NCBI GenBank assembly: GCA_036253055.1
Contig: GCA_036253055.1_4124.1
Origin: a phage
Strand: one strand, 5' to 3'
DNA length: 64,000 nt
How positions within the stretch are numbered: position 1 is the stretch's first letter; the number at the start of each line of letters is the position of its first letter. The translations under genes and the position numbers were made by a program. The notes under the pieces were generated by a model, which saw only the letters and a program-made list of their open reading frames with translations, ran no database searches and was not told the DNA's origin. Below are positions 40,100-40,632 of this stretch, piece after piece.

Positions 40100-40235
40100 G
40101 TACTTGATAGTACTAGCCACCAGCATATAATAGATACATTTATGCACCCTGTGGGTTAGATTGTTTCTGTGCATATATAATAGCAAAGGGACTGACCGGA
40201 GTCAATCCCTTTTTTAAATCTTTTTAAACTTGTTT
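40100..40235 (-). repeat. Intergenic repeat copy C (conserved element + intrinsic terminator)
   Basis: Element TGCACCCTGTGGGTTAG; terminator hairpin + T-run. Confidence 0.6.
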
Positions 40236-40373
40236 TGGGTTGCGATATGTGATAGCGTTCGGGTACATTTGTTTAATGTTATTCCATGCCTGGTTAACAT
40301 TGTAACCACTTGATCGAATCAGTTGGTTACTACCGACACCTTGAAACACTACTTCAAATAAGAATTCTTTCAT
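40224..40373 (-). CDS. Small hypothetical protein (49 aa)
   Basis: Not in track; SD GAGGTG; ATGA overlap with upstream small gene. Confidence 0.4.
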   Translation of the reverse strand: MKEFLFEVVFQGVGSNQLIRSSGYNVNQAWNNIKQMYPNAITYRNPKQV

Positions 40374-40543
40374 GCTTTCACCTCGCTATCTGCTTTGCCT
40401 TTACGCCAGGCCGTTGCTAATTGTTCGCGTTGCCATAAGTCGAGTGATACGTAAAGTTTTGCATTATCACCCTTCGGATATTCGCCAGTAGTACCAATCC
40501 GATAAAACAGATCTTTCAGTACTGATAATTCTACTTGGATCAT
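40370..40543 (-). CDS. Small hypothetical protein (57 aa)
   Basis: Not in track; SD AGGAG; ATGA overlaps on both sides. Confidence 0.45.
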   Translation of the reverse strand: MIQVELSVLKDLFYRIGTTGEYPKGDNAKLYVSLDLWQREQLATAWRKGKADSEVKA

Positions 40544-40632
40544 TGTATTACTCCTGATTGTGTTAGTACTTCTACGATGGCATGAATGATCATAAGTACA
40601 GCTAACACAACAATCATCGGATTCATTTGCAT
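40540..40632 (-). CDS. Small hydrophobic peptide (30 aa), single predicted TM helix
   Basis: Not in track; SD AAGGAG; MQMNPMIVVLAVLMIIHAIVEVL... Confidence 0.4.
   Translation of the reverse strand: MQMNPMIVVLAVLMIIHAIVEVLTQSGVIQ

What the first reader, a model, noticed from the sequence alone, without database searches (positions are those of the whole stretch)
40224..40632. Three translationally coupled micro-genes (30, 57 and 49 aa) including a single-TM peptide
Downstream of gene 40650-40862 three ORFs below the track cutoff each have an SD (AAGGAG, AGGAG, GAGGTG) and overlap by ATGA. The first encodes a hydrophobic 30-aa peptide (MQMNPMIVVLAVLMIIHAIVEVL...). A similar 29-aa hydrophobic peptide is at 44383-44472. 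Small membrane peptides in phages are often toxins, holin-like factors or membrane-protein modulators.
Basis: inference. Interest (0 to 1): 0.35.

Follow-up and report, generated by a model that had tools for sequence, protein, structure and literature searches.

The report
Small early genes of jumbo phage
The three tiny overlapping genes are real and conserved, they sit in an early operon of an Asteriusvirus-type jumbo coliphage, and related phage records already annotate them as hypothetical proteins, so the finding is correct but ordinary and their function is still unknown.

Summary
On the minus strand, g70 (40862..40650) is followed by m30 (40632..40540), m57 (40543..40370) and m49 (40373..40224). 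Each has a Shine-Dalgarno site, and two junctions overlap as ATGA.

The window is an Asteriusvirus-like jumbo coliphage (PBECO4/121Q/slurp01 group). The four genes form one early operon, from a perfect sigma-70 promoter to a strong hairpin, inside the region that is the direct terminal repeat in relatives.

All three ORFs show coding-type conservation. In-frame pN/pS is 0 to 0.5, changes concentrate at third codon positions, and m57 has an in-frame indel. 121Q (gp298-300), G17 and SD-1_S14 already annotate them.

- m57 belongs to phrog_10572, a wider family of 53-65 aa proteins.
- m49 (phrog_37188) has a confident beta-beta-alpha-beta fold that many small phage proteins share.
- m30 is a single-transmembrane micro-protein. 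Hydrophobic counterparts occupy the same slot in three distant relatives.

The cassette is mosaic. m30 is replaced by a promoter in about 14 genomes, and EJP2 lacks the trio. This fits shuffling by promoter/stem-loop cassettes (PeSLs).

Function is unknown. I infer dispensable early host-interaction proteins. A holin is unlikely, and toxicity was not tested.

The parts
40912..40939 (-). Operon promoter: TTGACA, 16-nt spacer, TATAAT (12 of 12 consensus positions)
   Evidence: Promoter scan. Conserved in relatives.
40880..40899 (-). GC-rich hairpin in the 5' leader (GGGGAGAA-AUGA-UUCUCCCC)
   Evidence: Folding energy -13.9 kcal/mol. The same type of hairpin follows most early promoters in the region.
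40650..40862 (-). g70, the first gene of the operon (70 aa, phrog_13428, function unknown)
   Evidence: In-frame pN/pS 0 to 0.18.
40540..40632 (-). m30, a 30-aa micro-protein with one hydrophobic transmembrane-length segment (residues ~5-23). Its SD, AAGGAG, is at 40646..40641.
   Evidence: Present in 22 phage records. Hydrophobic counterparts occupy the same slot in L012, L016 and L028.
40370..40543 (-). m57, 57 aa, predicted three-helix protein, phrog_10572. Its start overlaps the m30 stop as ATGA.
40224..40373 (-). m49, 49 aa, predicted beta-beta-alpha-beta fold, phrog_37188. Its start overlaps the m57 stop as ATGA.
40185..40212 (-). Terminator-type hairpin that ends the operon (AAAGGGAUUGAC-UCCG-GUCAGUCCCUUU). 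It contains the -35 element TTGACT of a downstream promoter whose -10 element, TATTAT, is at 40182..40177.
   Evidence: folding energy -19.5 kcal/mol, z -5.7. Compensatory changes appear in the copy at 44236..44209. Conserved even in EJP2, which lacks the trio.
40085..40176 (-). Conserved non-coding module downstream of the hairpin. It carries the 12-mer CCCACAGGGTGC at 40155..40144.
44209..44651 (-). Second operon with the same layout: p60 (44651..44469), then h29 (44472..44383) joined by an ATGA overlap, then p47 (44382..44239), then the same hairpin (44236..44209).

Best explanation
The three micro-ORFs are real protein-coding genes. Together with g70 they form a four-gene early operon of an Asteriusvirus-type jumbo coliphage.

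**How it is expressed.** Host sigma-70 RNA polymerase starts at the perfect promoter at 40939..40912. The transcript carries a 5' stem-loop and ends at the hairpin at 40212..40185. Ribosomes reach m30 through its own strong SD. They pass to m57 and m49 through SD sites embedded in the preceding ORF and through the ATGA stop/start overlaps, so the small proteins are made together.

**What the products are.** m30 is a single-pass inner-membrane micro-protein. m57 is a small three-helix soluble protein. m49 is a small beta-beta-alpha-beta domain.

**How the cassette evolves.** It is dispensable and is shuffled between related phages by recombination at the repeated promoter/stem-loop cassettes (PeSL-type).

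**What is shown and what is inferred.**
- Shown: gene reality, operon anatomy, conservation and mosaic distribution.
- Predicted: the protein folds.
- Inferred: early timing, from the promoter type, the position in the terminal repeat and the literature on relatives.
- Inferred, and the weakest step: a role as accessory proteins that act on host components early in infection, with m30 acting at the membrane.
For: **Identity of the window.** 92-94% nucleotide identity to slurp01, PBECO4, G17 and related phages over the 1.4-kb query, and 96.4% to slurp01 over the 721-bp operon query.

**Existing annotation.** The ORFs are annotated in 121Q gp298-300, G17_00020-22 and SD-1_S14.

**Coding signal.** Third-position bias and low in-frame pN/pS, an in-frame 3-nt indel in m57 of 121Q and Turkey5, and ATGA junctions conserved for m57/m49 in all relatives.

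**m30.** In A4 and Turkey5, 33-34 of its 90 coding nucleotides differ, yet the ORF keeps its start, a length of 29 aa and its hydrophobic profile. Hydrophobic micro-ORFs sit between a g70-like and an m57-like gene in metagenomic relatives L012, L016 and L028.

**m57.** The family has 18 representatives at 50% identity among 1.8 billion proteins. All are 53-65 aa, and the 22 family members scanned (the window's m57 plus 21 homologues) all fall in phrog_10572.

**Structure predictions.** AlphaFold2 gives pLDDT 83 for m57 and 93.6 for m49.

**Operon signals.** Promoter 12 of 12. Terminator hairpin -19.5 kcal/mol, z -5.7. The ribosome-binding regions of m57 and m49 are unstructured.

**Position.** The operon lies in the stretch homologous to the annotated direct terminal repeat of vB_Ec-M-J. 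Short ORFs behind RpoD-like promoters are regarded as the early host-takeover region in Rak2-like phages (PMC5259590).

**Mosaicism.** m30 is replaced by a promoter plus hairpin in the EC.P1 group. A4 and Turkey5 have a promoter inserted ahead of m30. EJP2 lacks the trio cleanly. This matches PeSL-mediated shuffling (PMC2839356, PMC4122927).
Against: - There is no expression data. I found no transcriptomic or proteomic study of these genes in Asteriusvirus.
- Nothing supports any function. Pfam, NCBIfam and PDB sequence searches gave nothing significant. Fold matches are non-significant or are to uncharacterised proteins.
- The coding signal of m30 is weaker than that of the others. pN/pS is about 0.5 against distant copies, and one off-frame gives a similar ratio.
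- The conserved C-terminal G-V-I of m30 coincides with the SD of m57, so part of its conservation is not at the protein level.
- Hydrophobic ORFs arise easily in this AT-rich DNA.
- m30 is absent from about 14 of 37 genomes that carry m57 and m49.
Confidence: 0.7

Rival explanations
1. m30 is not a functional protein. It is a bridging micro-ORF, or a chance ORF, whose translation only relays ribosomes from g70 to m57. Its hydrophobicity reflects T-rich codons.
For: - A micro-ORF occurs in this slot only where m57 is co-transcribed with a g70-like gene. Where m57 has its own promoter there is none.
- The conserved C-terminus of m30 overlaps the SD of m57.
- Hydrophobic small ORFs are common by chance, 9 of 401.
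- In-frame pN/pS against distant copies is about 0.5, and frame +1 gives a similar value.
- m30 belongs to no PHROG family.
Against: - Second codon positions are strongly conserved (5 variable sites, against 14 and 19 at the other positions).
- Replacements are conservative, hydrophobic for hydrophobic, where about 37% of the nucleotides differ.
- The N-terminal M-x-x-P motif plus a hydrophobic stretch recurs in L012, L016 and L028.
- L022 joins the g70-like and m57-like genes with no bridging ORF, so coupling does not need one.
- m30 has its own strong SD, AAGGAG, at ideal spacing.
Confidence: 0.15
2. m30 is a lethal membrane peptide: a type I toxin-like or holin-like peptide that depolarises or permeabilises the host inner membrane.
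For: Its size and hydrophobicity are in the range of the TisB, Ldr, Ibs and Fst toxins (background knowledge). Maximum 19-residue Kyte-Doolittle mean is 2.65.
Against: - The operon has an early sigma-70 promoter and a strong SD, and there is no convincing antisense promoter opposite m30.
- There is no lysis-gene context.
- m30 has no charged C-terminal domain.
- A lethal product made at the very start of a long jumbo-phage infection cycle would harm the phage (inference).
- Many sister phages lack it.
Confidence: 0.07
3. m49 works like T7 Gp2: a small early protein that binds host RNA polymerase and alters or blocks host transcription.
For: The predicted beta-beta-alpha-beta fold superposes on Gp2 in the E. 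coli RNA polymerase complex 4lk0_M (TM 0.68/0.66, rmsd 2.5 A). m49 lies in an early operon. It has an invariant Arg in strand 3 (TYRNP).
Against: - The Foldseek E-value is 0.36. Matches as good or better include a crAss001 virion protein, an archaeal ribosomal protein and over a thousand small phage proteins.
- hhalign probability against Gp2 is 0.3%, and there is no Pfam hit.
- Net charge is +3, against -5 for Gp2, whose acidic strip is needed for its function (charges counted from the sequences; the role of the strip is background knowledge).
- Rak2-like phages appear to keep using host RNA polymerase with their own sigma factors (PMC5259590).
Confidence: 0.05
4. None of the three ORFs is a gene. 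They are chance ORFs in a non-coding or regulatory stretch.
For: All three are short, have no functional annotation, and sit in AT-rich sequence.
Against: - Codon-position bias, an in-frame indel and intact ORFs across 81-96% identical genomes.
- Distant protein homologues of m57, down to about 30% identity.
- High-confidence fold predictions from shallow alignments.
Confidence: 0.03

Closest known systems
Annotated hypothetical proteins of Asteriusvirus phages: 121Q gp297-gp300, G17_00023-00020, SD-1_S14 WPK19795-WPK19792
   Same: The same genes in the same order. m30 is 100% identical to 121Q gp298. The m57 and m49 proteins are 76-100% identical to their homologues across the phage records compared.
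   Different: Nothing of substance differs. Several records (slurp01, EC.P1, A4) leave m30 unannotated.
PHROG families phrog_10572 (m57), phrog_37188 (m49) and phrog_13428 (g70)
   Same: Full-length matches with E-values of 2e-27, 4e-40 and 6e-35.
   Different: All three families are of unknown function. m30 belongs to no PHROG family.
PeSL cassettes (promoter-early stem-loops) with their ORFans in T4-type phages (Arbiol et al. 2010, PMC2839356; Comeau et al. 2014, PMC4122927)
   Same: - Near-perfect sigma-70 promoters with an AT-rich upstream region and adjacent G-run/C-run stem-loops flank small ORFans.
- Sister genomes differ by insertions, deletions and replacements located at these cassettes.
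- The hairpin after m49, AAAGGG..CCCTTT, fits the 'A3-4 G3-loop-C3 T3-4' type described for phage nt-1.
   Different: - PeSLs were described in T4-like phages of 170-250 kb, not in Rak2-like jumbo phages.
- Here the main stem-loop lies downstream of the promoter, in the 5' leader.
- In the terminator copy, the -35 element lies inside the stem.
- Recombination at these sites is inferred from the alignment, not demonstrated.
T5 pre-early genes in the terminal repeat
   Same: Small early genes behind strong host-type promoters inside a long direct terminal repeat (background knowledge; DTR position).
   Different: There is no sequence relation. No evidence exists of two-step DNA transfer in Asteriusvirus.
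Bacterial small membrane proteins that modulate larger membrane proteins (AcrZ, MgtS, KdpF, CydX) and NCBIfam NF033695 (KPN_01571 family, 30 aa)
   Same: About 30 aa with a single hydrophobic helix. A weak NF033695 hit: E 0.0026, 17.4 bits.
   Different: The hit is far below the curated cutoff of 35 bits and is probably compositional. No partner protein is known.

Membership tests
phrog_10572 (m57) | Full-length match to the family profile | tested here: met
   E 2.2e-27 over residues 1-56 of 57. All 22 aligned family members, the window's m57 plus 21 homologues, hit the same PHROG.
phrog_37188 (m49) | Full-length match to the family profile | tested here: met
   E 3.6e-40 over residues 1-49 of 49.
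Holin | At least one transmembrane domain | tested here: met
   Hydrophobic stretch at residues ~5-23, with a maximum 19-residue Kyte-Doolittle mean of 2.65.
Holin | Late expression within a lysis cassette, next to endolysin or spanin genes | tested here: not met
   The operon has a perfect sigma-70 promoter and lies in the terminal-repeat early region. All annotated neighbours are small hypothetical proteins.
Holin | Charged, hydrophilic C-terminal tail | tested here: not met
   The C-terminus TQSGVIQ carries no charged residue.
Type I toxin-antitoxin (Hok, Ldr, TisB, Ibs, Fst type) | Small hydrophobic peptide under 60 aa | tested here: met
   30 aa and hydrophobic.
Type I toxin-antitoxin (Hok, Ldr, TisB, Ibs, Fst type) | Antisense or overlapping small-RNA antitoxin with its own promoter | tested here: not met
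   No strong plus-strand promoter lies opposite m30. The only ones nearby are a weak 9-of-12 site at 40430..40457 and a site at 40104..40131, outside the genes.
Type I toxin-antitoxin (Hok, Ldr, TisB, Ibs, Fst type) | Tightly repressed translation from a stand-alone, structured mRNA | tested here: not met
   m30 is the second cistron of a polycistronic operon and has a consensus SD at 8-nt spacing.
Type I toxin-antitoxin (Hok, Ldr, TisB, Ibs, Fst type) | Toxicity on overexpression | not testable with these tools
   Needs an experiment.
T7 Gp2 RNA polymerase inhibitor (m49) | Beta-beta-alpha-beta fold | tested here: met
   AlphaFold2 pLDDT 93.6. TM 0.68 to 4lk0_M, but E 0.36, and many unrelated small proteins share the fold.
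T7 Gp2 RNA polymerase inhibitor (m49) | Sequence homology to Gp2 | tested here: not met
   hhalign probability 0.3%. No Pfam hit.
T7 Gp2 RNA polymerase inhibitor (m49) | Strongly acidic surface strip (net negative charge) | tested here: not met
   m49 net charge is +3 (5 K/R, 2 E). Gp2 net charge is -5 (sequence verified).
T7 Gp2 RNA polymerase inhibitor (m49) | Binding to the beta' jaw of host RNA polymerase | not testable with these tools
   Needs a pull-down or an in vitro transcription assay.
PeSL-type regulatory cassette (flanking elements) | Near-consensus sigma-70 promoter with an AT-rich upstream region plus an adjacent G/C stem-loop, repeated many times among ORFans | tested here: met
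   Eight 12-of-12 promoters lie in 38-47 kb. Hairpins of -13.9 and -19.5 kcal/mol. The repeated modules align.
PeSL-type regulatory cassette (flanking elements) | Indel and replacement break-points between sister genomes fall at the cassettes | tested here: met
   m30 is swapped for a promoter plus hairpin. A4 and Turkey5 have a promoter inserted. The EJP2 deletion runs from the g70 stop to the terminator hairpin.
PeSL-type regulatory cassette (flanking elements) | Demonstrated promoter and terminator activity, and recombination products (mini-circles) | not testable with these tools
   Needs reporter assays and PCR.

The most novel reading that the evidence does not exclude
g70, a transmembrane micro-protein and m57 form a conserved three-part early module of Rak2-like jumbo phages. 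It would assemble at the host inner membrane right after DNA entry, for example to exclude superinfecting phage or to disarm a membrane-associated defence. In Asteriusvirus, m49 would be an added Gp2-fold binder of a host protein.

The gene order recurs in three distant metagenomic lineages even though the peptide sequence has diverged almost completely. That is compatible with this reading but does not show it.
Probability: 0.1. Interest if true: 0.55.

Novelty: already known. Interest (0 to 1): 0.22.

Why it matters
Small phage proteins made in the first minutes of infection have produced useful inhibitors of host machinery, and jumbo-phage early regions are almost unexplored.

This work shows that the three ORFs are real genes. 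It defines their operon and shows which parts are dispensable. It also supplies natural comparison strains: EJP2 lacks all three, and the EC.P1 group lacks m30.

That makes the cassette a reasonable but unremarkable candidate for screens of small proteins. It does not reveal a new kind of system.

Tried and rejected
**Searches that gave nothing useful**
- Pfam, NCBIfam and PDB sequence searches found nothing significant for any of the proteins.
- A Foldseek search of the PDB with m57 gave no match below E = 1.
- For m49, the PDB matches are all non-significant (E above 0.1). The BFVD matches with E below 0.01 are uncharacterised small proteins, and over a thousand small proteins share the fold. 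I therefore rejected transferring a function from T7 Gp2.
- No paralogues of m30, m57 or m49 exist in the window. The 29-aa peptide at 44.4 kb is not related to m30.
- The large protein search could not take m30, because the minimum query length is 40 aa. I used tblastn against phage records instead.
- The g70 search found only close Asteriusvirus relatives.
- Rfam and tRNA scans found nothing at gathering threshold. The permissive scan gave only sub-threshold matches, none tied to the repeated motif.
- The operon has no copy in 5,426 complete E. coli genomes, so it is not of prophage or host origin.
- A literature search found no transcriptomic study of Asteriusvirus.

**Candidate rejected**
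- A third strongly hydrophobic ORF, at 37729..37640, is nested out of frame inside a 213-aa gene and is a chance ORF.

Full report
**1. The observation**

On the minus strand the window reads as follows:
- g70: 40862..40650, 70 aa.
- A 17-nt gap containing AAGGAG (40646..40641).
- m30: 40632..40540, MQMNPMIVVLAVLMIIHAIVEVLTQSGVIQ.
- m57: 40543..40370.
- m49: 40373..40224.

The SD of m57 (AGGAG, 40555..40551) lies inside m30. The SD of m49 (GAGGTG, 40384..40379) lies inside m57. Both junctions are ATGA stop/start overlaps. The RNA around both downstream start sites is less structured than shuffled controls (-1.9 and -1.8 kcal/mol).

**2. Where the window comes from**

The 1.4-kb region is 92-94% identical to Escherichia phages slurp01, UB, G17 and PBECO4, to 121Q over the part it shares, and to several Salmonella phages. 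All are 310-386 kb Asteriusvirus genomes.

In vB_Ec-M-J the homologous genes lie at 13.4-14.0 kb inside the annotated 21,525-bp direct terminal repeat. By homology, the repeat corresponds to roughly 53,789 down to about 33,620 in the window.

Papers on this phage group report terminal repeats of 20-22 kb. They regard the stretches of short ORFs behind RpoD-like promoters as the early, host-takeover region (PMC5259590; PMC11895373).

**3. Operon anatomy**

- A 12-of-12 sigma-70 promoter (TTGACA, 16 nt, TATAAT) sits at 40939..40912. It is one of eight perfect promoters between 38 and 47 kb.
- It is followed by a leader hairpin at 40899..40880 (-13.9 kcal/mol).
- No promoter or terminator lies between g70 and m49.
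- Twelve nucleotides after the m49 stop comes a 12-bp hairpin at 40212..40185 (-19.5 kcal/mol, z -5.7).
- A second copy of the hairpin at 44236..44209 carries two compensatory pair changes.

The four genes are therefore one transcription unit.

**4. Are the micro-ORFs genes?**

I aligned 11 relatives spanning about 81-96% nucleotide identity.
- m57 and m49 are intact in every genome that has them. The one exception is the UNVERIFIED CMSTMSU record, where g70 and m57 are frameshifted but m49 is intact.
- Variable sites by codon position are 16/9/31 for m57 and 13/10/30 for m49.
- In-frame pN/pS is 0.25-0.46 for m57 and 0-0.27 for m49, against about 0.8 to 5 in the other two frames.
- m57 of 121Q and Turkey5 carries an in-frame 3-nt deletion.

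For m30 the signal is weaker but still points to coding:
- Variable sites are 14/5/19.
- In A4 and Turkey5, 33-34 of its 90 coding nucleotides differ, yet the ORF keeps its start and has 29 codons. The replacements are hydrophobic for hydrophobic (MHMNPFIVVIAIIMAVQAVLVYLSKAGVI).

There are two caveats for m30. One off-frame gives a similar pN/pS. The conserved C-terminal G-V-I is encoded by the SD of m57.

Hydrophobicity alone is not evidence. Nine of 401 small ORFs in the window are as hydrophobic as m30, and six of those are on the non-coding strand.

**5. Already annotated**

121Q gp298, gp299 and gp300, G17_00022, 00021 and 00020, and the SD-series Salmonella phages annotate all three ORFs as hypothetical proteins. 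slurp01, EC.P1 and A4 omit m30. m30 is 100% identical to 121Q gp298 and is found in 22 phage records.

**6. Families and folds**

*m57*
- It belongs to phrog_10572 (function unknown).
- An exhaustive profile search of 1.8 billion representative proteins found 18 clusters. All are 53-65 aa and share M-[IV]-x-V-[DE]-L ... SLDxWQ[RK]xEL ... KG. All 22 family members scanned, the window's m57 plus 21 homologues, fall in phrog_10572.
- AlphaFold2 predicts three helices (pLDDT 83). No structural match has E below 1.

*m49*
- It belongs to phrog_37188 (function unknown). Only four 90% clusters exist, all Asteriusvirus.
- AlphaFold2 predicts a beta-beta-alpha-beta domain with pLDDT 93.6.
- The best PDB matches are a crAss001 virion protein, an archaeal ribosomal protein and T7 Gp2 bound to RNA polymerase (TM 0.68). 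All have E above 0.1.
- In the viral structure library the fold is shared by over a thousand small, mostly uncharacterised phage proteins, including ones from CBB and RaK2.

*m49 against T7 Gp2*
- There is no sequence relation (hhalign probability 0.3%).
- The net charges are opposite: +3 for m49 and -5 for Gp2 (sequence verified).
- I treat Gp2 as a resemblance of fold only.

*Other results*
- m30 has only a weak, sub-threshold hit to a 30-aa family of small proteins encoded next to transporter genes.
- No paralogues exist in the window.
- None of the three is found in complete E. coli genomes.

**7. Distant relatives and mosaicism**

*m57 homologues in metagenomic contigs*
- A g70-like gene lies directly upstream in L012, L016, L022 and L028.
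- In three of those four, a hydrophobic micro-ORF sits between the g70-like gene and the m57-like gene:
  - L016: MNPIMAIVMTILLSAIVICEHYHLLGM, joined to the g70-like gene by ATGA.
  - L012: MYKPFIVILAACLIAASVQDGSLQQYWNEITYHLNRTP.
  - L028: MRLPNLVIILFALFWLFMAYESGDLQHTIEVLSWYM.
- Where m57 has its own promoter (L015, L024, L025, L027) there is no such ORF.
- m49 is absent from all of these contigs.

*Within Asteriusvirus*
- m30 is replaced by a promoter plus leader hairpin in the EC.P1, ECO103, vB_Ec-M-J and CMSTMSU group. That is about 14 of the 37 records that carry m57 and m49.
- A4 and Turkey5 have a promoter cassette inserted ahead of m30.
- EJP2 lacks the trio cleanly, from the g70 stop to the terminator hairpin.

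Break-points at repeated promoter/stem-loop cassettes are the pattern described for PeSLs in T4-type phages (PMC2839356, PMC4122927).

**8. Interpretation**

*Shown*
- The genes are real and form an early-type operon.
- They are translationally coupled.
- The cassette is dispensable and modular.

*Inferred*
- Expression immediately after DNA entry.
- m30 inserted in the inner membrane.
- All three acting as accessory host-interaction proteins.

*Readings I weighed and disfavour*
- A holin does not fit the promoter type, the genomic context or the uncharged C-terminus.
- A type I toxin layout is absent.
- The recurrence of g70-like, transmembrane peptide and m57-like genes in that order suggests a functional link, but it is also compatible with a bridging ORF.

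*The second peptide.* The peptide at 44472..44383 sits in a parallel operon: p60, then h29 joined by an ATGA overlap, then p47, then the same hairpin. It is conserved but is not homologous to m30.

**9. Verdict**

The finding is correct and is now well documented, but it is ordinary. These are small early ORFan genes that are already annotated in related phages and whose function is unknown.

The more unusual feature nearby is the repeated non-coding module that starts at the operon's terminator. It is recorded under the items noticed in passing.

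Noticed in passing
window 35356-35367(-), 37277-37288(-), 40144-40155(-), 42499-42510(-), 44163-44174(-), 48565-48576(+), 50934-50945(-), 52689-52700(+): The 12-mer CCCAYMGGGTGC occurs 8 times where 0 are expected.

- Each copy lies about 30 nt downstream of a same-strand sigma-70-like promoter. The 22-26 nt between them is a variable leader, and in most copies it holds a small covarying hairpin: GACG-AGAA-CGTC, GTC-GAGAAA-GAC, GAG-AGATAG-CTC.
- The copy at 48565(+) ends in a classic terminator.
- In distant relatives (L015, L025, L027) the motif is the 5' arm of a long, covarying hairpin with folding z-scores of -4.6 to -6.5. The window's own copies fold only weakly.
- There is no Rfam match at gathering threshold, and the permissive scan gave only unrelated sub-threshold hits.
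- The extended motif occurs in IMG/VR only in nine stretches, seven of them on 345-366 kb jumbo-phage contigs, one on a 109 kb contig and one repeating the 345,809-bp contig.
- The module is conserved at 68-78% identity in RaK2, K64-1, Muenster, Munch, CBB, GAP32 and fHe-Yen9-03, mostly with several copies per genome.

This may be a family of small early RNAs or leader elements in Rak2-like jumbo phages.
   Followed up: partly
window 35404-35417, 37330-37343, 40192-40205, 44216-44229 (all on the - strand): There are four copies of a terminator-type hairpin (AAAGGGATTGAC-TCCG-GTCAGTCCCTTT). Its 5' arm contains the -35 element TTGACT of a promoter whose extended -10 element (TGcTATTAT) follows the stem. 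It is thus a composite terminator and promoter, and each copy closes an early operon.
   Followed up: partly
window 40104-40131 (+): A promoter-like site on the opposite strand (TTGATA, 16 nt, TATAAT; 11 of 12). It would read through the reverse complement of the motif into the same hairpin, which on this strand is followed by six T residues. That would be a possible antisense RNA of about 80 nt. The -35 element is poor in the copy at 44.1 kb, so this may be incidental.
   Followed up: no
window 38000-47000 (- strand): Most of the small genes have their own consensus or near-consensus sigma-70 promoter: eight at 12 of 12 and several at 10-11 of 12. Those examined have an AT-rich upstream stretch, and several are followed by a GGGG...CCCC leader hairpin. 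The promoter count is 54, against 32.7 +/- 5.3 in shuffles. This resembles the PeSL cassettes of T4-type phages.
   Followed up: partly
window ~33620-53789: This stretch is homologous to the annotated direct terminal repeat (1..21525) of phage vB_Ec-M-J. Position 1 of that genome aligns to window 53789, so a physical genome end probably maps there.
   Followed up: partly
window 44239-44651 (-): A parallel operon with the same layout: p60, then a 29-aa hydrophobic peptide joined by an ATGA overlap, then a 47-aa basic protein, then the same hairpin. The hydrophobic peptide is 93-100% conserved and the basic protein only about 72%.
   Followed up: yes
L016 1996-2241, L017 3362-3607, L022 1831-2076: Early regions of distant relatives carry an 81-aa gene with a ParE_like (PF24732) toxin domain a few genes downstream of the m57 homologue.
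   Followed up: no
L009 (MH494197.1, phage CMSTMSU): g70 and m57 are frameshifted and the terminator hairpin is truncated in this UNVERIFIED record. These are probably sequencing or assembly errors rather than real pseudogenes.
   Followed up: no
L025 2213-2425 and 2501-2680: In a 341-kb metagenomic jumbo-phage contig, two members of the m57 family lie in tandem (70 aa and 59 aa), each with its own promoter.
   Followed up: no
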